From the NCBI GenBank assembly GCA_965237955.1, contig OZ250169.1:4224001-4288000 (forward strand): a stretch of 64,000 bases of DNA. The letters are read 5' to 3'. Shown here one piece after another: positions 12,596 through 64,000 of the stretch. The notes beneath the pieces are model-generated. The model saw only the letters and a program-made list of their open reading frames with translations. It did not search any database and was not told the DNA's origin. The position numbers were made by a program, and so were the translations under genes. The stretch is from Candidatus Marinacidobacterales bacterium (GTDB lineage: Bacteria; Acidobacteriota; Vicinamibacteria; Marinacidobacterales; SMYC01). Positions within the stretch are counted from its first letter, which is position 1. Every line of letters starts with the position of its first letter.

Positions 12596-12728
12596 CTAGT
12601 CCCCTGTATCAGAACAAACTAGATAAAGCAGAGCTTGCCGAAACCATTCTAAGTGCATGAATCTTATGAATCTTATGGGCTGGCGAAAAGCCTAACTTTG
12701 TATAGTAATCAAAGATCCGGGGGACTAG
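12596..12728 (+). mobile_element. 133-bp IS630-related MITE, copy 1
   Basis: CTAGTCCCCTG...GGGGACTAG ends. Near-identical to 24843-24975 and, in reverse complement, to 63647-63779. Confidence 0.92.
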
Positions 12729-12823
12729 AGACGAAATTTCGGGCGGGAAGCCTCCGTCCGTCGCGATTGCATTTCCGTTAGCGAAAAAGTAGAAAGGACT
12801 GGAAATTCAGAGAGTTTTTCACC

Positions 12824-13642
12824 ATGACAGCATCCGAGATCGATGCAAACGCCAACTTGAGCCCTCACTGCCGAAGACACCGGAGCGCGAGGTACGAGTC
12901 TATGGGCCTCGCCATCCTGATAGGCGTCATAGGCTGTCTTGTGTGGTTTCCATCAAGTGGGTTCGCCGTCCAATTCAAAATCATCACCTTGACACAAGGC
13001 TCAGGCTTGAACTTCGGGTCCGGGGTCTCTCTCAATTCCTCGGGCGTAGTGGGGACAGTGGTCCGGATCGGAAGTGAAGATGAGTTCGTTTTGGTAGACA
13101 AAGCCGGAAACATCACGAACTTGACTCAAAGCCAGTTTATCCAGGTCGGTCAAGGCGCCATCAACGACCTAGGGCAGGCAGCCTTTGTGATTGCATCCAT
13201 ACCGGATTTCTCGATGGATACCGATGTGATCTTCTTCGATGGAAGTCTTTTTCAGAACATCACGAATGGGAGCTTTTCGATTCAACCCGCAGGAGTGCTG
13301 CACCGTACAGTTAACAACTCCGGCCAGATTGCATTTGGAACTGATAACGGGCCTGTCTTCTTCGACGGGAACCAACTCATTGATGTAACGGCCGGAAGTG
13401 GCATCACAGCTCTGGGAAACCAGCCTCCGTCACTGAATGAAAACGGCCAGATACTATTTAGGGGGGAACTTGCAGGTAGAGGTGGCGCCTTCCTTTTCGA
13501 CGGCACCGCAGTAATAACGTTGGACACATCGTCGAAAGATGTGCATCGGCAAATGCTCCATCACTTGAGAGAAAATGAGACTGTCCGTGAACATGCGCTA
13601 CGATCCTCGGCAGGCCAAAGAAGCTTCGAGGGCGGCAGTTAG
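12824..13642 (+). CDS. Secreted repeat protein with (S/I/V)LNxxGQxxF repeats, probably truncated
   Basis: Hydrophobic signal, then repeats SLNSSG, INDLGQAAF, VNNSGQIAF, SLNENGQILF. The C-terminal tail looks unrelated. Confidence 0.55.
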   Translation: MTASEIDANANLSPHCRRHRSARYESMGLAILIGVIGCLVWFPSSGFAVQFKIITLTQGSGLNFGSGVSLNSSGVVGTVVRIGSEDEFVLVDKAGNITNLTQSQFIQVGQGAINDLGQAAFVIASIPDFSMDTDVIFFDGSLFQNITNGSFSIQPAGVLHRTVNNSGQIAFGTDNGPVFFDGNQLIDVTAGSGITALGNQPPSLNENGQILFRGELAGRGGAFLFDGTAVITLDTSSKDVHRQMLHHLRENETVREHALRSSAGQRSFEGGS

Positions 13643-15117
13643 GCAGGTAAATTCAAGTCGGTGACAGGCATAAATGAGTTCATTTTGAATAACAAAGGGC
13701 TACAGACACATTTAACTCAAACGTTGGGACAGCAGTGAGCTTACATATGAATCCAAAATCGGCGTTACTGATCGGCGCTATTCTCAGCTCAGCAGTTCAA
13801 TCGGGATTCGCCGATTGGACAGAAGCGGACATCGATGGTCTCAAGTGGCGCGAAGTTGGCCCCTACCGTGGCGGTCGTTCCGCAGCCGTCGAAGGTATTC
13901 CACAAAATCGCGATGTCTATTACTTCGGAGCCACTGGTGGCGGTGTGTGGAAATCCGTCGATCGTGATGTAAGTTGGGAGAACATTTCAGACGGGTACTT
14001 TGGGGGTTCCATAGGTTCCGTCGCCGTATCTGCCTGGGATCCGAATGTCATCTACGTCGGTACTGGTGAAAAAACTGTCCGCGGCAACACTTCCAGTGGA
14101 AACGGGATATGGAAGTCCACCGATGCCGGTCGTACCTGGAGTCACGTTGGCTTGGAGGACAGCCATCATATCCCGAGGATTCGGATTCACCCGCGTGATC
14201 CAGATATCGTGTACGTCGCCGCATTGGGACACTTGCATGGCCCGAATGAACAACGCGGTGTGTTCCGGTCAATCGACGGCGGAGCGAGCTGGGAGAAAGT
14301 GCTGTACGTGAATGACAGCGCTGGCGCGGTCGACCTTGTGATGGATCCCACCAACCCACGGGTACTATATTCCAGCACCTGGAGAGTTCGAAGAACGCCC
14401 TATACCATCGATTCTGGTGGCGAAGGTTCGGGCCTGTGGAAGACGAACGACGGCGGAAATAGCTGGCAGTTACTGTCCAGCAATGATGGGATGCCCGAGC
14501 CACCCCTTGGCATTTCTGGCATCGCCGTGTCACCAAGAAACCCGGACCGGCTTTACGCAATCATCGAAGCTGAATCGGGCGGCGTGTTTCGTTCCGACGA
14601 TGCCGGGGAGACATGGGAAAGCGTCAATCAAGAGCGACGATTGCGCAACCGACCATACTACTACTATCGAATCTACGTTGATCCGAAAAACACGGATGCT
14701 GTCTATATATTAAATACTCGGTTCTACAGATCAACAGATGGAGGAAAGAATTTCTCGGTAATTGATACTCCCCACGGCGACGAGCACGATTTGTGGATTG
14801 ACCCGAATGACCCGCACCGTATGATCGAAGCCAACGATGGCGGGGCGAATATCAGTTTCGACGGCGGACAAACATGGTCGGCCCAAGACAATCAGCCGAC
14901 CGCTCAAATGTATCGCGTGTCAACAGACAACGCGTTTCCCTATCGGCTCCTTGGTGGTCAACAGGACAATACCTCTTTGCGGATCCGCTCAAGATCGGCA
15001 ACAGGCTCTGCTATTGGCGTGCGAGACTGGGAACCGACTGCCGGCGGAGAAAGCGGTACTGTCGTGGCCAAGCCGGATGATCCGGATATTGTATTTGGCG
15101 TAAATTTCGCCGGGAAC

Positions 15118-16306
15118 CTAGTCCCCTGGATCTTTAATTACTGCCCAAATTCGATTTGCCATGTGTATCGAGCGTTCGCTGGGCGAACCGAGCGATGGTT
15201 TCGAGGATTTGGTCGGCGGATTTCGTCCACTTGAACGGCTTTGGGTTCTCGTTGTGAGCATCGAGATAGTCTTGTATCGCAACGCGGAGCTGAGGCACGC
15301 TCGTGTGCGAGCCTCGTCGCAAGGCGTGTTCGGTGAGCAAGCCAAAGAAGCGCTCAGCGAAGTTGAGCCAAGAGGCGTGTGTCGGTGTGAAGTGAAAGTG
15401 GAACCGAGGTCGCTTGGAAAGCCAGCGTTTGATCGCCGGTGTCTTGTGCGTGGCGAGATTGTCGAGCACGACGTGGATGTCCAACTCGCTGGGAACGGCT
15501 GCTTCGATCTCAGCGAGGAACTTCTTGAACTCTAGCGCTCGATGTCGCGCGTAGCACTTTCCGAAGACTTCACCTGTTGCGGCGTCGAGTGCGGCAAACA
15601 GGTCAGTCGTTCCATGCCGAATGTAGTCGTGGGTTTGTCGCTCGGGCTGGCCCAAGCTCATGGGCAGGACAGGTTGAGCACGCTCGAGCGCTTGAATCTG
15701 CGATTTCTCGTCGACGCACAGGACGACCGCGTTATCCGGTGGGTTCATATACAGGCCAACAACGTCGCGTACTTTTTCGACCAGTTGTGGGTCTTGCGAG
15801 AGACGAAACGATTCCGAGCGGTGCGGTTGAAGCCCGAACGTTCGCCAAATACGTCCAATCGTCGAATGACTCAGCCCAAGATGCTTGGCCATCGAGCGCG
15901 TACTCCAATGGGTTCTCCCCTTTGGAGTCGTCGCCAGCGTCTTGGTCACGACTTCCTCGATCTGGTCATCGCCGATTTTGCGAGCCGCTCCCGGCCGAGG
16001 TTCGTCGTACAACCCTTCCATTCGTTGTTCTACAAAGCGTCTTCGCCACTTGCCCACCGTGCTCCTCATGGTGTGCATCTTCCTAGCAACTTCCATATTC
16101 GTCAGACCCGCCGCGCAATCCAGCACGATCTTCGCTCGGAAGGCTTGGTGCGGCGAACTACGGCTGCGTCGCGCCAGTCGCGTCAGCGCTTCGCTTTCTT
16201 GAGACGACAGCTTCAATTCGGCTTTTCGCCGGCCCTTGTGTTTCATGCATTTAGCAGATCACAGAAGGGCCGGTGTTGTCTAGCTTTTTCTGTTCCATGG
16301 GACTAG
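15118..16306 (-). mobile_element. IS630-family element, intact, CTAG at both junctions
   Basis: Ends CTAGTCCCCTGGATC… / …TTCCATGGGACTAG, carries a 370-aa transposase. Confidence 0.95.
15134..16246 (-). CDS. IS630 transposase
   Basis: [40 protein letters not shown]. Confidence 0.95.
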
Positions 16307-18228
16307 AACGAATGGATCATCGCACAGGCGACGTGCGCTCAATCCACATCTGGCCCGACCTCCCCTACGGGTGGCTCGGAGAGGAGCTCAAATACCGATT
16401 TAACTGGAACTTTCCAATGGTGTTCTCGAACCATAGTCCAAATGTGCTCTATGCGGTGGCCAATGTCTTGTTCAGGACAAGCGACGAAGGTCAGACCTGG
16501 ACCACGATTAGTCCTGATCTCACGCGAAATCCGGTTCGCAATGACAGCTGGGGCATGAATGTTTACGCATCTGGTGAGCGACTTGCCGCCACCATTCTTG
16601 CCCTCGCTGAATCGCGGACGGAGCCCGGCGTCATCTGGACAGGTTCCGATGATGGGTTGGTGCACTTGACCCTCGATGATGGTGCCAACTGGACTGATGT
16701 GACGCCCAAGGGACTGCCGCAGGAAGTTCAGATCAACTCAATTGACGCGCACCCTTTTGAGGCGGACGGGCTATACGTTGCGGCGACAGCGTATGAACTG
16801 GATGATTTTCGGCCTTACCTGTATGTCACCCATAACTATGGGAAAAGTTGGATGAAAATAGTTGACGGGATTCCTGAAAACCATTTTACTCGGGTGATCC
16901 GCGCCGACCCTGTGAGGCAGGGCCTTCTTTTCGCCGGTACGGAGAGTGGCCTCTATATCTCCTATGACGACGGCGAAAACTGGCGTGCTCTACAACTTAA
17001 TCTTCCCATCTCACCTATCACCGACCTGGCCATCAAGGACGGAAATCTTGTGGCAGCAACACAAGGCAGAGGATACTGGATCTTAGATGATCTTACGTTT
17101 TTACGACAGCTTAAAGGAGATGTGTTTTCCGCCGATGCTCGGCTGTTCAATCCGATGCCAACATACCGCGTACTCACCGGGTCAGAAGATTCGCCCAAAA
17201 ACATGGGACAGAATCCACCCGCTGGTGTAGTTCTGCGCTACTGGCTGCGCGAAACACTACCACCCGAGAGCTTATTGCAGTTGAGAATTGAGCGCGAGGA
17301 TAGTGAGGTTATTCGCACATTCACACGCAAGGTCAGTGGTATTGCCGCCTCGACGGCGTCTCGACCACTCAGTGATGATGACCGATTGTTGAGTGCTGAG
17401 AAAGGCCTGAATACGGTTGTGTGGGACATGCGATGGCCAAGCGCTGAATCGCTTAAGGATATGATCTTGTTTCACAGCTCTGCCCTCGCCGGACCCACGG
17501 CTGTACCGGGCCAGTATGTAGCTAGGCTTACGGTCGGTGAATGGGAGCAGCAAGTGCCATTGACAATTCGCGCAGATCCTCGTTCGACCAACTCACCAGA
17601 GGACTACCAGGCACAATTTGATTTCTTGTTGCATCTAAATCATAAGTTGACGCAGGCACACAAGGCCTTAGGCCAAATTCGAAGTTTGAAGTCCCAACTT
17701 GCCGCGGCCACAGATCGTACATCACACGATTCAGCTTATGCTGAGCTGACCTCAGCGGGTAAGGCTATGCTGGAACTGCTAACGCAATTCGAAGAGAGTT
17801 TGTATCAAACAAAAATGGAATTTCGCACGGATCAGCTAGACAGATTTTTGCGCAATCGGCTCAATGACAAACTTGCAGGATTAATCGGATTGGTGGCGAT
17901 GAGCGATCACCCCCCCACCGAGTCGGCTATTAAGGTTCGCGACCAATTGGTATCGGCGATTGACCAGGAGTTGGAAGGTCTCGATCGCCTCATTGACAAC
18001 GATCTTGCCGATTACAATGACCGGGCGACAAGCATGAGGCGGCAAGTGATAATGGTGAACGAATCTCATTAGGATCTTCTGAAATATGTAGTATTCACGT
18101 CGGTCTGCCAGACCAATAATCGTTGATATCGGGGTAACGACATTGAGCAAAAACATTCTGCGATTTGATCGAAGGGCTTTTCCGTCGTCTATGAGCCAAA
18201 ACTCGGTCACGAGCTCGACCACGACGCC

Positions 18229-18420
18229 TTGACCGACCCGCTCGAGTTTTTAGCTCGAGTGCTCATCCACACCCCCGAGCCCCAAAAGCACTTGGTTCAT
18301 TTCTACGGCGCTTACGCCAATCGCGTTCGACAAACCTACCGAGTCCAGATTCGTCCCGATGACGAAGCCAAGCCGACTCCAACTCGACGTGCCGCGAACA
18401 AACGATGGGCCGAGCTCATC
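18229..18420 (+). pseudogene. IS91/Y2-type rolling-circle transposase C-terminal remnant
   Basis: DPLEFLARVLIHTPEPQKHLVHFYGAYAN…WAELI. Confidence 0.7.
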
Positions 18421-18632
18421 CCTTCCGCACCGCTTCCCGGAAACTCGCTCGCCTTTGGAGGCTCGATGAGCGAGTACCAGTAGTTCGCGGGGTAGACCAA
18501 GGCCGCTTCGCGAGGGGTGGACGCCACTTTCGCCTCGAGCGAGACGACCCGACCCGGTGACAGGTCGACGGGATCCGAGTCCACGAGCCCATACCCTCTC
18601 ACCCAGACCTTGTAGGTCGCCTCGGGAAGATA
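18420..18632 (-). pseudogene. Internal fragment of a paralog of the 19777-21951 gene
   Basis: WVRGYGLVDS…REAALVYPANYWYSLI…EFPGSG aligns with WVRGYGLVDS…RAAAEYYPAGYWFSLI…EFPGTG. Confidence 0.85.
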
Positions 18633-18720
18633 CTAGGGGACGTTTGTTCACTCCGAGCGTCGCGCTGACCTGATTCGAGGACACCAGCGGGTCGTTTCAC
18701 CCGTGCGTGTAACCCCTGTC

Positions 18721-18736
18721 TGGCACGGCCATTGCA
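18721..18736 (+). promoter_or_regulatory. Sigma-54 (-24/-12) promoter
   Basis: TGGCAC-GGCCA-TTGCA, an exact TGGCAC-N5-TTGCW consensus, 30 nt before the 18767 ORF. Confidence 0.75.
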
Positions 18737-18766
18737 CACTCTGCCAGTGTTCAAGATAGGGGGTAG

Positions 18767-19360
18767 GTGATGAAGTACTTGGGACGGCTAATCTTCCTCA
18801 TGGGCGTGGGCGTTGGACCCACCTCGATGCTCGCAGCGAAGGACGCGGTCGACGTCGACTACCGCTTGCTCGCGACCAACAAGACCTCGACCATGGAGCG
18901 CGAGTTGAACGAAGCCGCTCTCGACGGTTTCGTGCTGGTACAAGCGATGGGCGGCCACACCGAGCATGGCGGTGAGGAGCTCGTCGCGGTCGTCGAGCGT
19001 GACCACGGGGTCGATCACGCCGAGCCGTACGAATACCTCGTCCTGGCGACCAATCGTACCGGAACGATGCAGAACGAGCTCAACGACGCGGCTCGAAGAG
19101 GATTCGCGTTCGTCGCACAGACGGTCTTTACGACCGCTTTCGGCGGCGAAGAAGTCGTTATCATCATGGAACGGAGTCCCTATGCCGAGGCTCCGGTGTG
19201 CGAGTACGAGCTTCATGCCACCTCTCGGACATCGACGATGCAGAAAGAGCTTTCGGAATACGGGAGGAAGGGTTTCCTCGTGCGTGGCCTTTCCGTGTCC
19301 GAGACCGCGTTCGGCGGAAACGAGGTCGTCGTCGTGAGCGAGCGCTGCGTGACGCCGTAG
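18767..19360 (+). CDS. Secreted hypothetical protein with three internal repeats
   Basis: Signal peptide, then three units of Y-x-(L/V)-x-AT-x-(K/R)-T-x-TM-x-x-EL…GF…GG-x-E-(L/V)-V. Confidence 0.8.
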   Translation: MMKYLGRLIFLMGVGVGPTSMLAAKDAVDVDYRLLATNKTSTMERELNEAALDGFVLVQAMGGHTEHGGEELVAVVERDHGVDHAEPYEYLVLATNRTGTMQNELNDAARRGFAFVAQTVFTTAFGGEEVVIIMERSPYAEAPVCEYELHATSRTSTMQKELSEYGRKGFLVRGLSVSETAFGGNEVVVVSERCVTP

Positions 19361-19776
19361 CTACTTCAGGGTGAGCGGGTCACGCAGAGCGATTTGCGTG
19401 ACCTCGACCTGGGCGTCCGTCGGTGCGTCGGGTGTGGCGAAACCTTCTACCCGAACTATCGAGCTCATGTCGTTTGTCGGCTACCTTCGTAGACTAGGTG
19501 ATGGACTCTTCTTTGGTAGCTAGTGCTACGGTCCGCGCGGTCGAGATTCATGCTATGCCTCCGGTGATGTTCTTATCACTCGATTGCGCTGATACCAAAT
19601 GTCGGGACCCGCGCTTGAAGGGCGTTTCGCACCCCACTACCTGGTCGCGCTCTACGCGATCGGGGGATCTATTCCCGGCTTGGCCGTCACGAGGAAGCTC
19701 TCGACGCGTTCCCTAAAGCAGCGGAGCTTCGTGGACCGGGCTTCGTCAACGCGAGAACGATATTCTCCTTATCGGC

Positions 19777-21951
19777 TTACTTCGCGAGCGGGTCGGGGCG
19801 AAGTTGGAACTTCACGACCTTGCTCGTCGTGCCTTTACCGCCTTCGAGGTGAAAAGGCGTTCGGGTGCTGTAAGTCGCCCACACCCCCTTGCCTCTCCAG
19901 CCGGCGTTCGGATCATCGATGCGGCCATCCATCCACTTGGTGTAGAACCCGAGCGGATAGGGCACGCGCATGACGACCCACTCTCCCTCCTTCAGGGCCA
20001 GCAGCCCTTCGGACCCATTGCCGGTGTTGATCGGCACGTTTCTGCCCAACCCCAACGTGTCGAACTGATCCACCCAAGTGTAGTAGCTGGCCTCAGCGCT
20101 GCCCGAATCCGTCACGCCTTTGAGTTGCGGGAGCGGCTCCGGATAGAGGGTCCAGCCTTCGAGGCAGTGCTGCCCGGTCGCGGTCGGCCCATTGAGCGGC
20201 CCCGTGCACTTGCGGCGGTCGAAGCTGGCGAGGTGCCCGCTTGCCAGGGGCGTCCAGACGACGCCGTTGCGGTCGATGTCCATACCCCGCGGTGAGTACC
20301 CCTGCCCGAGCGCGTTCGGGTTGCCCCACGGCAGCTCGTAGATTTCCGCCAGAGCCGTCGCCGGCGGGTTCGGCCCCGGGTCCAGCCGAATGATCGAGCC
20401 GGGGAAGCCCAATGAGGATCCCCAGATCGACCCGTCGACGGGACTCACGGCAACGCCGTAATAGCCGGCGTTGATCCGCTTGTCCTTGGTGGGATCGATC
20501 GGCTCGTCGGGCTCCACATACGCGTCCCGCTTGCCGTTGCCATTGACGTCGAGGATGAGAGCGGTCCAGCCCTGCGACTTTTCCTCATCGCCGGTCTCGT
20601 CGAACATCTTCGTGTTCAGCCAGCCGATGACCCGGCCGCCACCGCTCGTCCACAGCGTGTGGTTGGCATCCTCGGCAAACACCAAGTGGTGCGTGCTGAA
20701 ACAGGTGCTAATGAGGGTGAACTCCTTGGTGGCCGGATCGTAGACGGCGAGGTGGCGGCGGGCTCGCTCGACCGGGAATAGCTTCGCCGACGGATGGTCC
20801 GACCCCTCTCTACAAAAGCCCGGATTCTCACTCGGGCGGACTCTCGAGGTGAGCCAGACCCTCCCCTTGTGATCGAGCATCGGATTGTGCACGTTGGCCC
20901 GACTGTTCCAGATCGCTTCGTCCCCCCAGTACGGTGACGGCTGTAGCGGCGGCCCCGCCGCAACCGGGGTGTCCGGATCGCGAACCGGTACCTTCACCTG
21001 GCTCGCCGTGTGACTCACCGGATCCAGCACGGGCATGTAATCCGCGCTGGCCTCGAGCGCTCCGTAGATAGGGCCGTTGGCGTTGACGGTGGGATTCCGC
21101 TTGTCGGTGGAAATCTCATCGTGGAGATACGCCTTGGGGTCGGCCCAGTCCCACTGCGTGATGACGACGTTTCGCTCCACGCCTTGCGGCCGCGGCGGTA
21201 CCGGCGGCCCTTCGCCGGCAACGATCCGATCGGTCCAGTCCGCGAACATCTCCAACGCCCGCTGTCGGCCCATCCTGTTGAGACCGTTGTTCATGCTCCC
21301 GCCCGCCTGTCCGGACTGGATGCGCCGATCCCACGCGGCCACCAGGGAGTCGAACTCGCCGAGCTCCGCGGGGATCTCCCACGTGGCCTTATTGCCCATC
21401 TGATGACACGCCGTGCAGCCATCCGACTTCAGGTTCCTGATCCACTCGGCCTGGCTTTCCATGTTTGGCGAAATGCCATTCCCCTGGGGCCCCGTGCCCG
21501 GGAACTCGTTATTGTCCGGCACCTGGATCAGGGAGAACCAGTACCCGGCCGGGTAGTATTCCGCCGCCGCGCGCGGATTGGGTGCCACCACCGCTGTGAG
21601 GTTCTGAATCGTGCCCGGTGTGACCCGAACCTTCGGAGAATCCACCAGCCCGTAGCCGCGCACCCACACGTCGTAGGTCGCGTCGGGCAGATCGGGCACG
21701 ACATAGCGCCCCTGATCGTCGGTGACCACGATCTTGTTGAACCTGGTGGCCAGGTCGGTCGTTTCCGCGATCACCCAGACGCCCGCTTCCAGCCCCTGGG
21801 CGCTGGTGACCACGCCGCCGAGGTCATCGCTGTCAATGCTGACCGCCTTGCCGGTGGGTTGGCAGGCACTCATCCCGGCCAGCGAGACGGCCAAGAACAC
21901 GGCGATGCCCGCCCCCACCATGCCTGCATACAAAACTCTGTTCGTCGTCAT
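19777..21951 (-). CDS. Exported protein with carboxypeptidase-regulatory-like domain, mono-heme c site and predicted beta-propeller
   Basis: Signal sequence, VVTDDQGRYVVPDLP, CTACH, 724-aa intact ORF. Confidence 0.85.
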   Translation of the reverse strand: MTTNRVLYAGMVGAGIAVFLAVSLAGMSACQPTGKAVSIDSDDLGGVVTSAQGLEAGVWVIAETTDLATRFNKIVVTDDQGRYVVPDLPDATYDVWVRGYGLVDSPKVRVTPGTIQNLTAVVAPNPRAAAEYYPAGYWFSLIQVPDNNEFPGTGPQGNGISPNMESQAEWIRNLKSDGCTACHQMGNKATWEIPAELGEFDSLVAAWDRRIQSGQAGGSMNNGLNRMGRQRALEMFADWTDRIVAGEGPPVPPRPQGVERNVVITQWDWADPKAYLHDEISTDKRNPTVNANGPIYGALEASADYMPVLDPVSHTASQVKVPVRDPDTPVAAGPPLQPSPYWGDEAIWNSRANVHNPMLDHKGRVWLTSRVRPSENPGFCREGSDHPSAKLFPVERARRHLAVYDPATKEFTLISTCFSTHHLVFAEDANHTLWTSGGGRVIGWLNTKMFDETGDEEKSQGWTALILDVNGNGKRDAYVEPDEPIDPTKDKRINAGYYGVAVSPVDGSIWGSSLGFPGSIIRLDPGPNPPATALAEIYELPWGNPNALGQGYSPRGMDIDRNGVVWTPLASGHLASFDRRKCTGPLNGPTATGQHCLEGWTLYPEPLPQLKGVTDSGSAEASYYTWVDQFDTLGLGRNVPINTGNGSEGLLALKEGEWVVMRVPYPLGFYTKWMDGRIDDPNAGWRGKGVWATYSTRTPFHLEGGKGTTSKVVKFQLRPDPLAK

Positions 21952-22311
21952 GTCACCCTCTCCCTTTTCCTCTCAGAACCCCCGGTTTCCGATGAATTCG
22001 CGCACATTGTAAATGAAACCTCCGGGCCGCACGACGGAATCCGACGCTGAGTGGCTTCAGGCTTCCGGCGTCAGGCTACGGACCTGAAGTCGCGCTCCCA
22101 CCGCGCTAGCGGTTGAGTTCGAGAGGTGCTTCCGCCAACACTGGATTGCGGAAGCACCTTAAATACGCGCCGCGGGGGCCTAGTTTCCACAGCTTTCCGA
22201 CAGCGGTTTTCCACACGCTGATTCAGCCCAATCGGGGATCCTCGAGCCACATACGAAATCGATCCTCGGTTGCGTGGAATTCGCCGCTGCTGTGCCTATA
22301 CTGACTTCGAG

Positions 22312-22923
22312 ATGGTGGAAGCCGAGCCACGCCGCATCATCATCGTGGGCGACGATCGGCTGGCGATCGAGGGCTTGTCTCATGTCCTCGGGAACGAAAT
22401 CGACCCACGCCAAATCGTGACCGCCGCGCCGTCCGATGCGGCAGTCGACGAAGCCGATGTCTGCATTTGGGATCTCGGCGCCAACCCACCCGGCGAGCTC
22501 GAGCTGCCATCGGGACCCCCGGTCGTCGCGCTCGTTCCGGACGGAGCTCTCGCTCGTCAAGCGTTCGCGGCCGGCGCGCGCGGCGCGCTCCTGAGGGACG
22601 CTTCTGCCAGGCGGATCGCGCGTGCGATCGACGCCGTGCTCGACGGTCTCGTCGTCCTCGACGATGAGCTCGCCGAAGAAGCGATGCGACCGCCCCCGCC
22701 CATGTCGTCCGGCCTTACGACTATGGAGCCCCTGACACCCCGAGAGCTCGAAGTGCTCGAGCAGCTCGCGCTGGGGCTCTCCAATAAAGACATCGCAAGC
22801 CGGCTCGGCGTGAGCCCGCACACCGCCAAGTTTCACGTCAACTCGTTGATCAGCAAGCTCGGCGCCACATCGCGCACCGAGGTCGTCGCCATGGCGGCCC
22901 GCGCCGGTCTCGTCACGTTCTAA
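22312..22923 (+). CDS. NarL/LuxR-family regulator (atypical receiver plus LuxR HTH)
   Basis: LTPRELEVLEQLALGLSNKDIASRLGVSPHTAKFHV. The receiver has LLRD at the usual Lys position. Confidence 0.9.
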   Translation: MVEAEPRRIIIVGDDRLAIEGLSHVLGNEIDPRQIVTAAPSDAAVDEADVCIWDLGANPPGELELPSGPPVVALVPDGALARQAFAAGARGALLRDASARRIARAIDAVLDGLVVLDDELAEEAMRPPPPMSSGLTTMEPLTPRELEVLEQLALGLSNKDIASRLGVSPHTAKFHVNSLISKLGATSRTEVVAMAARAGLVTF

Positions 22924-22926
22924 AAA

Positions 22927-22957
22927 CTACCCGAATGGGTAGGCCGCACCTACCCAT
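22927..22957 (+). promoter_or_regulatory. NarL-type operator: three TACCC/GGGTA half-sites
   Basis: CTACCC-GAAT-GGGTAG overlaps ATGGGTAGG-CCGCA-CCTACCCAT, upstream of the protease pair. Confidence 0.65.
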
Positions 22958-23000
22958 TCTCCTGATGCGAGGGCGATAGCTTCACGGCTAATCTCGGTGC

Positions 23001-23876
23001 ATGAGCAACACACTAGACGCACTATCCCAAGACATCGCACGCATCGCTTCTAAAGCACACCCACGGGTCGTCGCGATCCACGGACGCCGTGTCGCTCCCT
23101 CAAGCGGGATCATATGGAACGGCGAAGGGATCGTGATCACCGCGGAGCACACGCTGGAATCCGACGACAGCTTCGAGCTGACGGAGGCGGGAGGCGCGCG
23201 CAAAAACGCCGCGCTCGTCGGGCGTGACCCCGGCACCAACGTCGCTGTCCTGCGAGCCACCGACCTCGACAAACCCGCACCGGATTGGACCGATACGAGC
23301 CGCCTCGAGGCCGGACACCTGGCCGTGGTCGTGGCGCCTCGCCGAGCCGGTCTCGTCGCCGTCAACGTGGTCGACGAAGAGTGGACCACCCGAAGCGGCG
23401 GCCGGCTCGATCGCTACATCGAGATCGACCCGAAACGCTTCCGCGGTTTCTCGGGAAGCCTTCTACTCGATTGCAACGGCCAGGCGCTGGGCATGAACAC
23501 CACCGGACTCGCGCGGCGCAAACCGTTGACGGTTCCCACGGAAACGCTTCGTCGCGTCGTCGACAATTTGATCGAGCACGGTGAGGTTCGCCGCGGATTT
23601 CTCGGTATCACCACGTCGCCGGTGCGACTTCCGGACACGGTGGAATCGCAAGCCGTCGGACTTTTGATCCTCTCAGTGCAACCAAAGAGTCCCGCCGCGG
23701 CGGCCGGGCTCTTTCTCGGTGACGTCGTCCTCGGAATCGAGAGCGAAATCGCGGAGAGCCCGATCGCACTCCTGACCTACCTCACCGAGGAGCGCATCGG
23801 TCAGAACGTCGACATGCGAATTCTCCGCGCGGGCGAAGAGAAAACCGTCAGCGTGCTACTAGGCAAAAGAAAATGA
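23001..23876 (+). CDS. HtrA-like S1C protease with PDZ domain, no signal peptide, possibly degenerate triad
   Basis: TAEH, DPGTNVAVL (Asn at the Asp position), GFSGS, PDZ SPAAAAGL. Confidence 0.85.
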   Translation: MSNTLDALSQDIARIASKAHPRVVAIHGRRVAPSSGIIWNGEGIVITAEHTLESDDSFELTEAGGARKNAALVGRDPGTNVAVLRATDLDKPAPDWTDTSRLEAGHLAVVVAPRRAGLVAVNVVDEEWTTRSGGRLDRYIEIDPKRFRGFSGSLLLDCNGQALGMNTTGLARRKPLTVPTETLRRVVDNLIEHGEVRRGFLGITTSPVRLPDTVESQAVGLLILSVQPKSPAAAAGLFLGDVVLGIESEIAESPIALLTYLTEERIGQNVDMRILRAGEEKTVSVLLGKRK

Positions 23877-24839
23877 TCGTCGACGTCGACGAAGCTGAGG
23901 TTCTAGACGCGTATTCGAAAGTGGTAACGCGCGTTGCCGAAGAGCTCAGCCCGTCGGTCGTCAAAGTCGACGTCGAGAAGGCCGAACGGAAGTCACGATT
24001 CCGTCGCCGCCGTGACTCCGGCAGTGGCTCGGGCTTCGTCTTCACGCCGGACGGTTTCGTGCTCACGAACAGCCACGTCGTTGCGGGCGCCAAGCGCATC
24101 GAGGTCACCCTCCTCGACGGACGTTCCTTCGAGGCCGATCTCGTCGGCGACGACCCGGACACGGATCTGGCAGTTGTCCGCATCGGTGCGCCCGACCTCG
24201 TAGCCGCCACGCTCGGAAACTCGCGCACGCTCAAAGTCGGTCAGATCGTCGTTGCGATCGGGAACCCGCTCGGTTTCCAATGCACGATCACCGCGGGCGT
24301 TGTGAGCGCGTTGGGCCGATCGCTCCGTTCTCAATCCGGTCGTCTCATCGAAGGCATCATTCAAACCGACGCCGCGCTCAATCCCGGAAACTCCGGTGGA
24401 CCACTCGTGAGCTCCGCGGGACGCGTCGTCGGCCTCAACACCGCGGCGATCATGGGAGCTCAAGGTCTGTGCTTTGCTATCCCGAGCGCGATCATCACGC
24501 ACACCGCGGGCGTTTTGATCCGAGATGGGCGATTACGACGAAGCTACATCGGTGTGCGCGGTCAGGACGTTCCCGTCTTGAGACGCCTGACGCGTGCTCA
24601 CGAGATCACGAACGAACGAGGCGTCCTGATTGTTTCTGTGGAGAAGCGCAGCCCCGCAGACGAAGCCGGACTTCGCGAGGGTGACATCGTCATCGCCCTC
24701 GACTCCACGCCGGTGCAAGGCATCGACGACCTGCTGCGTCTTCTAACCGAAGATCGCATCGGGAGTGACTAGCGAAGTGAAACTCCTGAGAGGCACGGAA
24801 ACGAGGACACTTTCGATCCAGCCCACTGAGAAGCCATAG
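23873..24839 (+). CDS. HtrA-like S1C protease with PDZ domain; +1 frameshift near 24762 trims the last about 25 aa
   Basis: TNSHV, DPDTDLAV, LNPGNSGGPL. The shifted frame continues GVTSEVKLLRGTETRTLSIQPTEKP to TAG 24839. Confidence 0.88.
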
Positions 24840-24842
24840 GCG

Positions 24843-24975
24843 CTAGTCCCCTGTATCAGAACAAACTAGACAAAGCAGAGCTTGCCGAAACCCTTCTAAG
24901 TGCATGAATCTTATGAATCTTATGGGCTGGCGAAAAGCCTAACTTTGTATAGTAATCAAAGATCCATGGGACTAG
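24843..24975 (+). mobile_element. 133-bp IS630-related MITE, copy 2
   Basis: Same sequence as 12596-12728 with a few substitutions; CTAG at both ends. Confidence 0.92.
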
Positions 24976-58123: not shown

Positions 58124-58219
58124 GGCTTAGTGTTGGATGTCGAGATCCAGAATAGGGGACGCTGCGACGGTCTTCAAGTGAGGCGGTGGGTGTGTTTCGT
58201 TCCCCCCGTTACGGTATAC

Positions 58220-58495
58220 CTACTTCTTCTCCCACGCTCTGCCTTCGGGCGTCTTCAGCCACGTCTGACCTTCGTGTGACGCGAGCCATCGCGCGTCCTT
58301 GGTGGTTCGTCGAAGCCAGAAATCGATTTTGTTGATAACGACTTCTCCCAGAGTCCATGCGACGAACATCCCGACGAACGCGGCAAGAAATGCCCAACTA
58401 CCAAGTGTGGGCCGAGTCGCGGCGAAGGCCGCTACGACGCCCAAACCACTCACGCCAGCGGCGAAGAAGATTCTGAATGGTTTTGCAACATACAT
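58220..58495 (-). CDS. Small two-TM hypothetical protein
   Basis: Two hydrophobic segments and a WLxxxEG repeat tail. Confidence 0.45.
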   Translation of the reverse strand: MYVAKPFRIFFAAGVSGLGVVAAFAATRPTLGSWAFLAAFVGMFVAWTLGEVVINKIDFWLRRTTKDARWLASHEGQTWLKTPEGRAWEKK

Positions 58496-58527
58496 TCAGA
58501 GTGCTCGTTGAAGCGTGATTAAAATGG

Positions 58528-59376
58528 TCAACGGAGCGGGTCGGCCGGGCCGAGCCACGTCAGCTGAACGCCGGCGCCACCGGGGACGAGCATCGGAGTG
58601 AGCGCGAGCCGCTCCTTGGCGATAGTGACAGTCACCGTGCGACCGCTCATGATCCCGAGCGCCGCGCCGAAAATGACATCGCTCAAGTAGTGCCGCCCCT
58701 CGTTCAACCGCGAGCTCGCGACGTAGCTCGCGAACGCGTAGGCAGGAATGCCGACGCGTAAGCCGTATCGCTTCTGCAGCACCGTCGCCGTCGCAAACGA
58801 CGCCGAGGTGTGTCCCGAAGGGAACGAGGTCGTGCCCGACCCGTCTGGCCGCTCTCGACCGGCAGCGACTTTGATCCCGAAGGTGATGACCCCGGCGACG
58901 ACCTGTGCACGTACGAGGTCGCGCCCGAGATCCTCCACGCCCGGGTTCGAGAAAAGCTTTCCCAGGCCGAACGTCGTCACCGCGATCGCGGCCTGCGCGT
59001 AACCGGCGCCCGCGATCTCGCCCGCTTCGAAGACTTGGTCGAGCGAGCCTCCCCTGTTGAGCTCGTTGAGCTCGGAGTTCAGACGGCTGGTGGCAACGCG
59101 TTGGTCGAAGTGGCTCGCCCCCCACGCCGCCCCTAGACCGACGCCGACAATCGCGAGGTTTTCTTTCGTGGTGAAGACGTTCTTGAAGTCGATTCCGATC
59201 TGCCGCACGAGGTTCGGAGACGAGCGGTCCTCTTCCTCGACCCGTTCGGTCGTGCGCTGGCCGTAAAAGTAGGTCCTCGGGATGAAGAAGGGATCGAGCC
59301 GCTCACCGCCAACGGCCCGCGGGCACGTGATGCCAAGCGCCAGAAGAGACCAACAAAAGCAAACTCGTCCGTTCAT
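58528..59376 (-). CDS. PAP2-family membrane phosphatase
   Basis: KVAAGRERP, SFPSGH, SRLNEGRHYLSD. Confidence 0.9.
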   Translation of the reverse strand: MNGRVCFCWSLLALGITCPRAVGGERLDPFFIPRTYFYGQRTTERVEEEDRSSPNLVRQIGIDFKNVFTTKENLAIVGVGLGAAWGASHFDQRVATSRLNSELNELNRGGSLDQVFEAGEIAGAGYAQAAIAVTTFGLGKLFSNPGVEDLGRDLVRAQVVAGVITFGIKVAAGRERPDGSGTTSFPSGHTSASFATATVLQKRYGLRVGIPAYAFASYVASSRLNEGRHYLSDVIFGAALGIMSGRTVTVTIAKERLALTPMLVPGGAGVQLTWLGPADPLR

Positions 59377-59379
59377 GCG

Positions 59380-59733
59380 TCACCCCCTTGAAAACGTAAG
59401 GTAAACGTGGTGCTCATCGAACGAGAACGGCTTGGTGACGTAGTCGTCGGCGCCGGTATCGAGCCCGGTGACGGCGTCTCGCGGCGTATCCCGAGCGGTG
59501 AGCATCAGAATCGGCGTGTGAAAGCCTTGGTCCCGAAGCCGCCACGCTACTTCCAAGCCATCCATCACCGGGAGCATGACGTCGAGGATCACGACATCGA
59601 ACCCCCGCGGCACGGCGAAATCGAGCCCTTCGGCGCCGTCCGCGGTCACCGTGGTGACGTGGCCCTTCCCGCTCGAAGCCCGCTCCAGGAGGGCCGCCAT
59701 GCGCTCGTCGTCCTCGACGATCAGGATTTCCAC
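59380..59733 (-). pseudogene. OmpR-family response regulator; only the receiver remains
   Basis: ILIVEDD, LDVMLP, MLTA, GADDYVTKPFSFDE, then unrelated sequence. Confidence 0.85.
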
Positions 59734-59755
59734 GAGCGCAGTGTATGTGAGAACT

Positions 59756-59772
59756 CTGAAGAAATGCTGAAG
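59756..59772 (-). promoter_or_regulatory. PmrA/QseB-like box upstream of the response regulator
   Basis: Minus strand CTTCAG-N5-CTTCAG, 10 nt, then -10 TACACT, 6 nt, then GTG. Confidence 0.65.
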
Positions 59773-59779
59773 CCTCCTA

Positions 59780-60505
59780 TCAGCGACCCGCGACGTTCAG
59801 CCACGGTGTGTGTCGTTTGAGAGACCGGAGCACCACGTACCCAAGACTCCCGCCGGCAAGGACCACTATCCACGGTGGATCGAGCGTAGTGCGACTTTCC
59901 ACGCTCCAATTTCCCATCAGCTCGAGGAGCACCAAGGTCGCGATGACGCCGAGCCAGCTCGAGGACTCTCGCCGGAGTACGGTTCTCACCGAGAACGGCA
60001 AGGAGGGCTGACGAAAGAGTCGCACGTTCGGAAAAAATGCTGGCGTCTGCCGTGCCCACCGAAGGTAGCGGTTTTTGAACTTGCCTCGAAGAAACTCTTC
60101 CTCCGCATACATGATGCGCTCGTAGTAGATCCAGAAAACAGCTGCTACCGAAAACGCAAGCCACCAGCTTCGAGGCACGAGCGCGACGCCGAGCCAGATG
60201 AGAAAGTTCCCCAAATAGAGCGGGTGCCGCACGAGCGAATAGGCTCCGGTCGTGTTGAGGTGCTCGCAAATTGGACATCGAGTGTTCCGTCCCGAGGTTC
60301 CACTCGGAGCGTGTCCCACGACGTAAGCGCGAACCAAGAGCCCCGCAAAGGCGGTAGCTAGGCAAAACGATTCCCACGGTGAGCCGGGTCGAATTGAGAC
60401 GGCCCGCATTTGGGACAGTACGAGAGCCAGTGCGGCGAGCGGAAAATAACTACGCCAGCGAAACAAGAACTAACCCGCGACCGCAAATTCCTCTCGTAGG
60501 GGCAT
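59780..60505 (-). pseudogene. lmtA: LmtA-like (ICMT-family) lipid A phosphate methyltransferase with an in-frame TAG at codon 12
   Basis: MPLREEFAVAG*FLFRWRSY, GTSGRNT, LNTTGAYSLVRHPLYLGNF, YYERIMYAEEEFL. Confidence 0.72.
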
Positions 60506-60530
60506 GGCAGGAGCATCGTAGGATCTCGGA

Positions 60531-60547
60531 TTGAAGAATCCCTGAAG
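60531..60547 (-). promoter_or_regulatory. PmrA/QseB-like box upstream of the lmtA-like gene
   Basis: Minus strand CTTCAG-N5-CTTCAA, 10 nt, then -10 TACGAT, 9 nt, then ATG. Confidence 0.65.
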
Positions 60548-60826
60548 ATTGACTTGAGTTACGATCGACCACAATGGTCACGAGAGTCACGGAACGCGAG
60601 GAGCTCTCCTCGTTTCACCCGTTGCCCCTCCTCGACCAGAAGCTGAACTAGGAGAGCGCTAAAAAGTGAGGGGTCACGGCGGCAGGTGCAGGACGTGCCA
60701 CCCGTAAAGATATGAGGAGCGGTGCTTCCGCCATCGAGTGTTGGCGGCCGAGCCCTAAACTGCCTGCGTGCTAGAGTTTGAGCCCGATTTACCGGCGGGT
60801 GATCGAGCTCCTTGCTACCCCTGTAA

Positions 60827-61100
60827 GTGCTCGGTGAGGTCGGCACCGCGAACATCAAGATCGTGATCCCACCTCGACGAGGGGCGGTACCTTTGGACGG
60901 CGCCGAGGGCACGGCGCAGCGGAACGCGACCCTCGAGACGATTCGCAATGTCGGGCGCCAAGGCTGGCAGCAGGAGTCAGGGCATCGACGACAGGGCGCT
61001 GGCGAGAATCTTGTCTTCAGGTACAAGCGCACGCTCGGAAACAGCCTTCGCGCGCGCGGCTACGAATCGCAAAAACGGGAGGCAAGGATAACGATCGTCG
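60827..61100 (+). pseudogene. IS5-family transposase 3' remnant
   Basis: VIPPRRGA…WQQESGHRRQGAGENLVFRYK…LRAR parallels the C-terminus of the 47539-48504 transposase. Confidence 0.8.
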
Positions 61101-61187
61101 GGGAGTAAGTTGGGCCGCCAATAGGATCCGTGCGTGTCCAGAACTGATTCATGCACCAACGCCCAACGGGTTCCGAATCGACTCGGT

Positions 61188-62000
61188 TCACAAAAAACGC
61201 TCGATGCTCGAAGCCACCCTCTCAGCGTGCGACCACACCATCCAATGACCCGCCTCGGCTACGAGCTCGACTTCGGCTCCGGGAACGAGCTCGGCGAGCC
61301 GCTCACCATGGCTCGGGGGGAAATGATGGTCCCGCTCGCCCCACAATGCGAGCGTGGGACGACGAATCTTCTCGTAGTATCGAGGCAGTTCCGGCAAGAA
61401 GCCTTGATAGCCGCCGCACATCCGGGAGATGAAGCGACGCACATCGGGGCGACGAAAATGCTCCCAAAAATCACTGTGAAGCTCTCGCGGAAGCTTCGCC
61501 GGCCGCTCGAGAAAAGTCTGTTCTGCCCGGCGAAACACGATCCGGGGAAACCTCTCGATCAAGAATCTATTCCAACCATGCTGTCGAAGAAGGCGGATCT
61601 CCCACGAAGTCGGCTCGTCCGATAGCACGAGCGAGTTCATAATAACGATCTTTTCGATCCGCTCCGGATACTCGGCGGCCGCGACCAGCGCCGGTTGACC
61701 ACCCATGTCCACGGCCGCGAGATGAACCTTGGATAGCTTCAGCTCATCGAGGACTTGAATCAATCGCTTTGCCATGTGGACCGGCGAGGCCCCGCCGGAC
61801 CAGGGTTTGCTTGCCCCCATCCCTGGCCAATCGAATGCGATGACCTCGACGTGGCAAGCGAGCAAGTTCGCCAGGCGACAAAAAATCTGAAGCGTCTCAG
61901 GATAGCCGTGGAGGAGGACGAGCGGAGGGCTCCCGTCGCCAACGCGAGCGACGCGCAGTTTGTGCCCTTCCCTCGTCGTCACCAGCCGCGTGTCCAACAT
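61188..62000 (-). CDS. Alpha/beta hydrolase (epoxide hydrolase / haloacetate dehalogenase-like)
   Basis: LLHGYP, DWPGMG, VDMGG (Asp nucleophile), WGERD, AGH. Confidence 0.88.
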   Translation of the reverse strand: MLDTRLVTTREGHKLRVARVGDGSPPLVLLHGYPETLQIFCRLANLLACHVEVIAFDWPGMGASKPWSGGASPVHMAKRLIQVLDELKLSKVHLAAVDMGGQPALVAAAEYPERIEKIVIMNSLVLSDEPTSWEIRLLRQHGWNRFLIERFPRIVFRRAEQTFLERPAKLPRELHSDFWEHFRRPDVRRFISRMCGGYQGFLPELPRYYEKIRRPTLALWGERDHHFPPSHGERLAELVPGAEVELVAEAGHWMVWSHAERVASSIERFL

Positions 62001-62003
62001 CAG

Positions 62004-63344
62004 CTATCCCGCAAAATCCTCGTGCACAGCCTCCGCTCCCAGAATTCCTGAGATCGCGCAGAAGCTGACCCATTGACCAGGGTGCGTGGAGCTTCCGACG
62101 AGGTACAGGCCCTTCACATTCGGACTGCGATGACGAAGCCGACCACGGCGAGCGAGCCGCGCTGTCATCACCGGGTTCATGGAATTCTGATAGAGATGAA
62201 ACTCTTTGCCCCAGTCCGACGGCGTGCGTACCGCGAGCGTCTTTCGAGACTTCGCCATGTCCGTCCACCAACTGTCATCGAAAGCTACGGCCTCGGCCGA
62301 AATCAGCCGCGCCGGATGCCGCCCCGCTCGAATCTGAGTGTCGTCTATTAGGCTCGGCTGCGCGAGCAGTTCACACCCCTCGGGCCCTAGATAGAAACGG
62401 AGGTAAGGGGCTTCGGGAGACGCAATGCTCAAGTAGGTGCAGCGCCCCGGAGATTGAAGTGGAAGCTCGCGAAGACGCTCGGCGCCGGAGGGCGTTGGAT
62501 CGCACAGCTCGAGATACGTCCCGACGCCCCCCGCATTCGAGACGATGGCGTCGAACTCCACGAGCTCACCGTCGACGACGACCGCGGGACGCGGATCGAA
62601 TCGAAGTTTGCCGACCTTGGTGTCGAATCGAAATGTTACGCCCAGCGTTTCTGCTTCTTGCGCCAGCCGCGAGGGAATGACACCGATCCCGCCACGAGGA
62701 TAGAAAGCGCCGACGGTGTGAACGAGGGCGGGCACCAAGGCGAGAAGACTCGGGGCCTCGTCGAGAGATTGCCCGGCAATGTGCGTCCAGATTGAGAGCG
62801 CGTCGACGATCTCAGATGCGAGTCCTGAACGGCGAAGCGCAGAGCGCAACCCACGCATCAGAAACGGAGCGTGTCGGACGGCGCCGGTGCGAACAAGCGA
62901 ACGCCAACCGGGTGTGGCGACGTATTGAAGTGGGTGCACGCTGCGATGGACGCTTTCGAGCTCCTCGACGAATCCGAGGTAGCGCTTCGCACTGCCGGGC
63001 CAGCTCTTCTCCATCGCTTCCGCGGTCCGATGACGGTCCGCGTAGATCTGAACCTTCCCGCCGTCCCCGAAACGCACGTCGTAGAGCTCCTCGATGCGGA
63101 TGAGCGGGATCTCGCTCCGAAGGTCGAGACCCAGCCGCTGGAATGCCCAATCGAGACCAGGTCGATCCAGCAAAACGTAAGGTCCCGCGTCGAATCTGAG
63201 GCTCCCGGCTTCGAAGCTCGAAGCCAATCCGCCAGCGGAGGATCGCGCTTCGAACACAGTGACCGCGTATTGGAGTTGCGCCAACCGGATCGATGCAGTG
63301 AGACCGCCCATCCCAGCACCGATGATCGCTACTCGTTTGGTCAA
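62004..63344 (-). CDS. CrtI-like FAD-dependent desaturase/oxidoreductase
   Basis: IIGAGMGGL, RFDAGP, YPRGG, LYLVGSSTHPGQWV. Confidence 0.85.
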   Translation of the reverse strand: MTKRVAIIGAGMGGLTASIRLAQLQYAVTVFEARSSAGGLASSFEAGSLRFDAGPYVLLDRPGLDWAFQRLGLDLRSEIPLIRIEELYDVRFGDGGKVQIYADRHRTAEAMEKSWPGSAKRYLGFVEELESVHRSVHPLQYVATPGWRSLVRTGAVRHAPFLMRGLRSALRRSGLASEIVDALSIWTHIAGQSLDEAPSLLALVPALVHTVGAFYPRGGIGVIPSRLAQEAETLGVTFRFDTKVGKLRFDPRPAVVVDGELVEFDAIVSNAGGVGTYLELCDPTPSGAERLRELPLQSPGRCTYLSIASPEAPYLRFYLGPEGCELLAQPSLIDDTQIRAGRHPARLISAEAVAFDDSWWTDMAKSRKTLAVRTPSDWGKEFHLYQNSMNPVMTARLARRGRLRHRSPNVKGLYLVGSSTHPGQWVSFCAISGILGAEAVHEDFAG

Positions 63345-63350
63345 ACGCGT

Positions 63351-64000
63351 TTAGACCATTCCGAGAAGCTTTCTCAGCAGCGCCCGCTCGAGGCGGACGA
63401 TGTTTCTCGGGGAACTCTTGGGAGGGAAGAAATCCACATCCATCGGCGGGAGGAACGTCTCTCCACGGGCACTCGCGAACTGGTACACGGGGTTCGCGAG
63501 GAGGCTCAAAAAGCTCGTCCATCCGTTCGCATAAGGACTTCGCCACTCAGACACGGGCTCGTCCCTACCTACGACTTCGATCGCATCGGTGGGATCACCG
63601 AACCAATGGCAAGCAGCGTCGAGAACGACAGATGCCCGCGGATTCGCTAGTCCCCTGGATCTTTGATTACTATACAAAGTTAGGCTTTTCGCCAGCCCAT
63701 AAGACTCATAAGATTCATGCACTTAGAAGGGTTTCGGCAAGCTCTGCTTTATCTAGTTTGTTCCGATACAGGGGACTAGACCCATATGCCGCGTGGCCAC
63801 CATGTCGACCGCGAGCGCGTCCGCGCCTGCATAGAGGCGGTGGGGCGTTGGGAATCGGGGACAGGCGATGATTCCGACAAGGCCGTCCGCAGCCGAGGCG
63901 TAGCCGTCGATGAGCGCGAAGTCCGGTGGAAACTCGGTGAGCGGCATCAGAAGCGCGGTGTCACGATGCGCGGATCGCTCCAGGAAAAGAAATTGTTCGA
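63351..64000 (-). pseudogene. DUF362-like gene (3' part), interrupted by MITE copy 3; it starts beyond the window
   Basis: PDFALIDG…AGADALAVDMVA. Removing the MITE restores RHMGL|ANPRASVV in frame. Confidence 0.7.
63647..63779 (-). mobile_element. 133-bp IS630-related MITE, copy 3 (inverted)
   Basis: Reverse complement of copies 1 and 2; CTAG at both ends. Confidence 0.92.

What the first reader, a model, noticed from the sequence alone, without database searches (positions are those of the whole stretch)
12596..63779. 133-bp CTAG-targeting MITE family with its probable autonomous IS630 in the same window
Seen: three near-identical AT-rich copies (12596-12728, 24843-24975, and 63647-63779 inverted), each bounded by CTAG. 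One MITE end, CTAGTCCCCTGGATCTTTGATTACT, differs by one base from the IS630 end at 15118. The other end matches 16279-16306 at 22/28. The interior is not transposase-like and holds a tandem ATGAATCTT repeat and a TATAGT. Both the IS and copy 3 duplicate CTAG inside genes. Inference: an active non-autonomous element mobilised in trans, likely present in many copies across the genome.
Basis: partly seen in the sequence, partly recalled or inferred. Interest (0 to 1): 0.7.

Follow-up and report, generated by a model that had tools for sequence, protein, structure and literature searches.

The report
Genus-hopping miniature IS630 transposon
A 133-base jumping element without its own enzyme has over a hundred copies in this bacterial genome and near-identical copies in five other genera; it is likely moved by a full-length IS630 transposon with matching ends, an ordinary kind of element whose wide host range is its one unusual trait.

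Summary
Confirmed and extended. The three copies are real, and the genome holds 118 (113 with CTAG at both ends) plus 38 full-length IS630 copies, 34 with intact DD35E transposases. Empty single-CTAG alleles exist in paralogous sites and in other samples, where copy 1 and the window's IS are each absent. It lies closer to a sister element found elsewhere (99/121) than to the window's IS (91/121), so the window's IS is likely its mobiliser, not its parent. TATAGT is the parent's stop-codon region; no promoter was found. The MITE occurs at 92-100% identity in 7 of 54 other genomes of the order (5 genera, 2 families; gyrB only 71-77%), none with an intact cognate IS found, and twice inside 1.3-1.4 kb segments shared at 99% across genera. 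Verdict: a new IS630/MITE pair of the RUP kind, with likely horizontal spread as a passenger. Mobilisation itself is inferred, not shown.

The parts
12596..12728 (+). MITE copy 1, 133 bp with both CTAG (127 bp proper, 12599-12725, if TA is the duplication); intergenic
   Evidence: a contig of run X1 with 0 other differences joins 12595 to 12725, i.e. the empty allele
12596..12691 (+). left arm of copy 1: homolog of the IS630 left end, leader, start codon (12657) and about the first 8 codons, with the first 9 coding bases duplicated in tandem (12657-12674)
12692..12728 (+). right arm of copy 1: homolog of the last codons, stop codons (the TATAGT at 12701-12706 lies here) and right end of a P0010-type IS630
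   Evidence: 33/37 identical to L176, 29/37 to the window's IS (124-bp copy as query); reads PNFV** against P0010's PDFV*
24843..24975 (+). MITE copy 2; intergenic, 70 bp behind a trypsin-PDZ gene
   Evidence: an empty form with 2 other letters and short sides (44-79) in X1, X3, X7 is weak evidence
63647..63779 (-). MITE copy 3, inserted in the sense direction into a DUF362 gene
   Evidence: empty allele in one 191-bp contig of X3 with 9 other differences
15118..16306 (-). IS630-family element, 1189 bp with both CTAG; one of 38 full-length copies; likely mobiliser
   Evidence: skipped exactly (15117 to 16303) by contigs of X2, X3 and X7
15134..16246 (-). 370-aa transposase P0001: N-terminal HTH, D179-D262-E298 (DD35E)
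   Evidence: PF13358 E 9e-24; NF033545 IS630 equivalog 281 bits, cut-off 100
13735..18072 (+). BNR/VPS10-repeat gene split by the IS (1050 codons when the IS is left out)
63351..64000 (-). 3' part of a DUF362 gene that begins beyond the window; split by copy 3 (636 codons when the MITE is left out)

Best explanation
This is a non-autonomous miniature IS630 element with 118 copies in the genome, made of the two ends of an IS630 with the transposase gene deleted, likely derived from a sister of the window's IS, likely cut out and reinserted at CTAG sites by the window's intact IS630 transposase, and likely carried between genera by horizontal transfer. Shown: copy number, ends, target, empty alleles, end-to-end homology, distribution. 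Inferred from family knowledge (ISY100, PMC2170065): the transposase binds the terminal repeats through its HTH domain, cuts both ends and joins them at staggered positions of the TA in CTAG, so TA is duplicated. Inferred from the data: the element is older than the present IS burst, reached this genome from outside (at least once as a passenger in a 1.3-kb segment), and multiplied here because a compatible transposase is abundant, while it stays at 2-16 copies in relatives where no intact cognate IS was found.
For: 118 copies, 113 with CTAG at both ends, 21 identical to the top haplotype. 38 full-length IS, 34 intact ORFs, diversity 0.004. The only other IS630 in the genome is 26-42% identical with unrelated ends. 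Same target and the same preference for G next to CTAG: 0.52 MITE, 0.46 IS, 0.34 all CTAG. 2 MITE copies sit inside IS copies that are 99.5-99.8% identical to the window's IS, at a CTAG that is single in 41 paralogs, so the MITE moved while the present IS was spreading. 30 of 118 copies have an empty paralogous site (4 of them tandem pairs), a single CTAG being the commonest form in 25 of 30. Presence/absence differs between samples. End-to-end alignment and 99/121 vs 91/121 identity. 7 of 54 other genomes of the order, 0 of 400 sampled across the phylum; 26 of 34 fetched full-length copies are at least 95% identical to a G000 copy against gyrB 71-77% with 39-44% at fourfold sites. Identical MITE at the same site inside shared segments: G023/G018 (two families, 99.7% over 1067+323 bp) and G000/G008 (99.1-99.3% over about 1325 bp, a haplotype 9 changes from the G000 majority).
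Against: No binding or transposition was tested. The exact parent was not found: the best sister is only 82% identical over the ends, against 75% for the window's IS and 78% between the two IS, and 0 of 209 fetched homologs begin MNL. MITE diversity (0.021) is five times IS diversity (0.004), so part of its history predates this IS burst. A P0010-type right end is present in run X1, so another source of transposase exists in that community. Most same-site pairs between genomes differ in orientation or haplotype and look like independent hits of one hot spot, not passengers. Copy counts in relatives come from capped searches (15-21 candidates scored per genome). All genomes are assemblies; raw reads were not available.
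Confidence: 0.78

Rival explanations
1. The MITE was moved by its true parent or a P0010-type transposase that was lost from this genome or supplied briefly; the window's IS is a bystander with similar ends.
For: The MITE is closer to the P0010 type; a P0010-type end is in run X1; MITE diversity exceeds IS diversity.
Against: No P0010-type DNA in G000: best match of L176 is the window's family at 86% and 0 hits for three diagnostic words. 21 and 15 identical copies and insertions into current IS copies point to very recent movement.
Confidence: 0.13
2. The sharing across genera is an assembly or binning artefact, or vertical inheritance of a conserved element.
For: The genomes look like metagenome assemblies and share many other repeats at 95-100%; G000 is scored 6.2% contaminated.
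Against: 14 of 34 fetched copies have both flanks absent from G000; carriers have their own variants (134-bp forms in G008); distribution is patchy (G013 yes, congener G009 no; G023 yes, congeners G025 and G033 no; 0 of 28 in family f3); gyrB fourfold sites are near saturation; 17 of 31 variant pair types break the consensus fold, so no sign of structural conservation.
Confidence: 0.05
3. The element is a domesticated regulatory unit (outward promoter or RNA hairpin) kept by selection.
For: The + strand folds into one long hairpin, z -4.0; 37 of 91 unique-site copies are genic against 3293 of 5852 CTAG sites (p 0.003).
Against: With the terminal repeats held fixed z falls to -1.3 to -1.8; no orientation bias to neighbouring genes (15/14/13/14); 0 promoter-like sites; avoidance of genes is what purifying selection on a selfish element gives.
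Confidence: 0.03
4. The MITE is a direct deletion product of the window's own IS lineage.
For: It aligns end to end with that IS.
Against: 75% identity to the IS ends while IS copies are over 99% identical to each other; peptide ends MNLMG and PNFV match P0010 (MNHMG, PDFV), not P0001 (MKHKG, SNLGSN).
Confidence: 0.01

Closest known systems
RUP of Streptococcus pneumoniae with IS630-Spn1 (PMC2229807, passages read)
   Same: Short AT-rich repeat (107 bp, 108 copies) with IS630-like terminal repeats and TA-containing targets, proposed to be mobilised in trans by an IS630, and found inside other IS.
   Different: Here the whole interior can be traced to IS630 ends, the target is strictly CTAG, 43 of 115 sites are inside predicted genes (RUP is described as intergenic), and the element crosses genera and families.
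IS630 of Shigella sonnei and ISY100 of Synechocystis (PMC2170065, passages read; Tenzen and Ohtsubo 1991 seen only as a title in its reference list, fetch failed)
   Same: Single HTH + DDE transposase, imperfect terminal repeats, insertion at TA; the cited title names TA in CTAG as the preferred IS630 target.
   Different: A different subgroup by sequence (relatives with the same CTAG-TCCC ends at 61-70% aa occur in metagenome genomes of several phyla); no activity tested here.
Prokaryotic MITE census (bioRxiv 10.1101/2024.01.18.576219, passages read; supplements not seen)
   Same: MITEs as internal deletions of IS, tens to hundreds of copies per genome.
   Different: 97.4% of census MITEs stay within a genus at 95% identity; this one falls in the 2.6% that do not, and two passenger events can be pointed to. 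Such exceptions are known there and ascribed to horizontal transfer.

Membership tests
IS630 family (window IS) | Single transposase with N-terminal HTH and DDE domain of the IS630 type | tested here: met
   PF13358 and HTH_32, NF033545 above cut-off, D179-D262-E298 with 35 residues between the last two
IS630 family (window IS) | Terminal inverted repeats | tested here: met
   15/20 between left and right ends, counted with CTAG
IS630 family (window IS) | Insertion at TA with TA duplication | tested here: inconclusive
   All sites contain TA within CTAG and the empty allele has one CTAG, but TA versus CTAG duplication cannot be separated on a palindromic target; the two CTGG/CCAG cases with known empty alleles had CTAG targets
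IS630 family (window IS) | Cut-and-paste transposition by the transposase alone | not testable with these tools
   Family knowledge from ISY100; needs an assay
MITE | Short (50-500 bp), no transposase gene | tested here: met
   133 bp (124-155 variants); only a 12-codon remnant ORF
MITE | Terminal inverted repeats and a target duplication | tested here: met
   14/20 between ends; one CTAG empty, two filled, net 129 bp
MITE | Many dispersed, near-identical copies | tested here: met
   118 copies, 60 distinct sequences, mean 1.6 changes from the top haplotype among 106 full 133-bp copies
MITE | Ends shared with an autonomous element in the same genome | tested here: met
   22-23/28 left and 23-24/25 right; 34 intact transposase ORFs
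MITE | Mobilisation in trans by that element's transposase | not testable with these tools
   Only indirect evidence
An already named MITE or IS (ISfinder entry) | Sequence match to a named element | not testable with these tools
   ISfinder is not available here; no match in 72,556 plasmids, 50,697 phages, Rfam or earlier scan notes

The most novel reading that the evidence does not exclude
An orphan MITE that outlived its parent IS630, crosses genus and family borders as a passenger in 1.3-1.4 kb pieces of exchanged DNA, sits at low copy number where no compatible transposase exists, and explodes to over 100 copies when it meets a sister transposase whose ends are only 75% like its own: a natural, datable case of cross-mobilisation, with a second client MITE whose end type also varies between host genomes.
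Probability: 0.5. Interest if true: 0.55.

Novelty: new member of a known kind. Interest (0 to 1): 0.38.

Why it matters
As a kind of system it is ordinary (an IS630 with client MITEs, like RUP). It is a clean example because origin, empty alleles, polymorphism between samples and a candidate transposase are all visible, so mobilisation in trans and cross-recognition between sister transposases become directly testable. Its spread over two families is an exception to the genus confinement on which MITE-based host assignment of viruses relies, and it shows one route: riding in other exchanged DNA. In this genome MITE and IS break about 59 predicted genes (43 and 16 sites), a real force on gene loss.

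Tried and rejected
Virus or plasmid vehicle: 21 of 21 viral hits were 17-23-base chance matches; none in plasmids or phages. Using non-CTAG junctions to measure the duplication: not informative. Composite transposons: 0 of 28 close element pairs had a joined empty site elsewhere. Promoter: 0 sites. Conserved RNA structure: explained by the terminal repeats. Expression: one RNA-run contig covers a MITE copy (X21) but contigs show neither strand nor start, so it is no evidence. Other CTAG-flanked IS630 in relatives (about 41% aa, different ends, over 50 matches in G021 with only 3 MITE matches, present in MITE-free G009) were rejected as mobilisers. Four literature searches were topic searches; their listings showed no paper on this element, but they cannot show that it is unnamed. 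The organism's taxon was not determined.
Full report
Observation. The three copies are at 12596-12728 (+), 24843-24975 (+) and 63647-63779 (-), each 133 bp, 42-44% GC against 60% for the genome, 4 differences between each pair, CTAG at both ends. The IS at 15118-16306 (-) is 1189 bp and encodes a 370-aa protein with HTH and DDE_3 domains that passes the NCBIfam IS630 cut-off and has a D179-D262-E298 triad. Leaving out the IS restores a 1050-codon BNR/VPS10-repeat ORF, leaving out copy 3 a 636-codon DUF362 ORF; copies 1 and 2 are intergenic.

Genome-wide. The window lies in an 8.13-Mb single-contig genome. It has 118 MITE copies aligned over at least 100 bp, in 60 distinct sequences, with 21 and 15 copies of the two commonest; 113 of 118 have CTAG at both ends. 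The IS has 48 pieces, 38 full length in one piece, 34 with an intact ORF. CTAG is rare: 8099 seen, 29185 expected. The only other IS630 found by tblastn has 4 copies, 26-42% identity and unrelated ends. A second element of 166 bp with the same terminal repeat has 15 copies.

Mobility. 30 of 118 copies have an empty paralogous site in the same genome (4 are tandem pairs matching themselves); in 25 of the 30 the commonest empty form is one CTAG. Two copies sit in an internal CTAG of IS copies, single in 41 paralogs. In public runs, all held as contigs: a 3301-bp contig of X1 with 0 other differences joins 12595 to 12725 (copy 1 absent) yet runs 57 bases into the IS; contigs of X2, X3 and X7 (three studies) join 15117 to 16303 (IS absent); one short X3 contig lacks copy 3. 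The empty form of copy 2 has short sides and 2 other letters and is weak. X1 may be the source sample; then copy 1 is polymorphic within it. Among 91 unique-sequence sites 37 are in predicted genes against 3293 of 5852 CTAG sites (p 0.003), and there is no orientation bias (genes called by my own hexamer model).

Origin. The MITE aligns end to end with the IS: about 90 bases of left end, leader, start codon and first codons, then about 36 bases of 3' end. The interior alone scores above 1000 of 1000 shuffles against either IS. Read in the parent's frames it gives MNLMG(W/R)RK and PNFV**, which match homolog P0010 (89% to P0001; MNHMGRRK, PDFV*) better than P0001 ([14 protein letters not shown]). 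A metagenome contig, L176, holds this sister IS (98.9% to P0010, 86% nt to the window's IS, itself carrying an early stop). Over 121 comparable bases a 124-bp MITE copy matches it at 99 and the window's IS at 91; the two IS match each other at 94. So the MITE is an internal deletion from the sister side; the exact parent was not found. The tandem 9-mer is a duplication of the first three codons (6 copies of 124 bp carry one unit), and TATAGT spans the parent's last codon and stops. No promoter-like site was found, and the long RNA hairpin (z -4.0) is mostly the terminal repeats (z -1.3 to -1.8 with them fixed).

Distribution. The MITE is in 7 of 54 other genomes of the order (family f1 5 of 18, f2 2 of 8, f3 0 of 28; five other genera) and 0 of 400 genomes drawn across the phylum. 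I fetched 34 full-length copies from these seven; they are 92-100% identical to the nearest G000 copy, 26 of 34 at 95% or more, 31 of 34 with CTAG at both ends. gyrB of the same genomes is 71-77% identical to G000, 39-44% at fourfold sites, and congeners in near-complete assemblies lack the element, so horizontal transfer is the simplest reading. No intact cognate IS was found in the carriers: G012 has a broken 88% copy and a fragment, G015 a left-end fragment, the other five nothing above about 50% over most of the protein. Matches per carrier are 2-16 (capped searches; the end-pattern search of five of them agrees in scale). Two cases show carriage in larger DNA: G023 (f2) and G018 (f1) have an identical MITE at the same site in a segment 99.7% identical over 1067+323 bp that cuts genes at both ends in G018; G000 (twice), G008 and, interrupted, G015 share a sharp-ended 1325-bp segment whose MITE haplotype is 9 changes from the G000 majority. 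Most other same-site pairs differ in orientation or haplotype and are independent hits of CTAG hot spots beside integrase-core (rve_3) elements.

Mechanism. From ISY100 (PMC2170065, passages) the transposase would bind the ends by its HTH domain, cut both, and join them at the TA, duplicating TA; the MITE proper would then be 127 bp. This is inferred; the palindromic target hides the duplication length, and the CTGG/CCAG junctions with known empty alleles had CTAG targets. That the window's IS supplies the enzyme is inferred from shared ends, shared target and flank preference, absence of any other candidate in the genome, MITE insertions into current IS copies, and the contrast of 118 copies here with 2-16 elsewhere. 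Against it: the MITE is five times more diverse than the IS and the sister type is present in run X1.

Comparison and verdict. The closest known case is RUP with IS630-Spn1 (PMC2229807, passages); trans mobilisation of MITEs is reviewed in PMC10969869 (passages). A census found 97.4% of MITEs confined to a genus and ascribes the rest to horizontal transfer (bioRxiv 2024.01.18.576219, passages; its supplements, which might list this element, were not seen). ISfinder could not be searched. This is a new member of a known kind, well documented, whose host range across two families and visible passenger transfer lift it a little above ordinary. Earlier scan notes held nothing on it.

Noticed in passing
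G000:C1:1421392-1421557 and 14 more; L067 2561-2725 (G012); 165-bp end pairs in G008, G018, G021: A second MITE of 165-166 bp with the same terminal repeat and CTAG target, a near-perfect hairpin (z -4 to -10), 15 copies in G000. Its ends read like the window IS's left end in G000 and G012, and like the sister's left end in G008 and G021; G018 has both.
   Followed up: partly
bases 5-12 of both ends of the 38 IS copies and of the MITE: The terminal repeat is about 20 times more variable than the IS interior (0.058 vs 0.003), the same few changes recur at both ends of both elements on different interior haplotypes, and three other IS families of the genome show 0-0.005 there. Unexplained: recurrent mutation at ends, exchange between copies, or sequencing error near CCWGG/CTAG.
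   Followed up: partly
whole genome G000: About 19% of the genome, after removing these elements, lies in 25-mers present three or more times, and relatives of other genera share many repeats with it at 95-100%: an unusually mobile, shared gene pool.
   Followed up: no
G000:C1:2925657-2926981 and 7903338-7904660; L259 9456-10777: A sharp-ended 1325-bp segment without a recognisable transposase (226-aa ORF, no Pfam hit), 99% shared with G008 and G015; in G000 it sits between two inverted 20-bp repeats. How it moves is unknown.
   Followed up: partly
L257 9411-10797 (G023) and L258 9185-10677 (G018): A 1.4-kb piece of ordinary chromosome, cutting genes at both ends in G018, shared at 99.7% between two families.
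   Followed up: partly
window 16229-16274 (-): The IS leader pairs with codons 4-6 in a 9-bp stem that encloses the start codon; recalled as a known way to shield IS translation from read-through transcripts.
   Followed up: no
G000:C1:4099904, 7466461, 7122935, 5805252; L085 239-963 (G005): Decayed elements of a third kind with MITE-type ends and unrelated interiors, interrupted by other IS; also the IS right end fused to a 1.6-kb repeat at 2830237 and 7899310, shared with G021.
   Followed up: partly
L074, L075 (G015): Two MITE copies are split by other elements at the tandem 9-mer with an 8-bp duplication.
   Followed up: no
window 7279-7392 (+): ALIL pseudoknot (RF01497, 100 bits), recalled as the frameshift signal of IS3-family elements.
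   Followed up: no
window 18254-24700 and 61000-61200: Much higher contig depth than the single-copy flanks in the laid runs, suggesting further repeats or widely shared genes.
   Followed up: no
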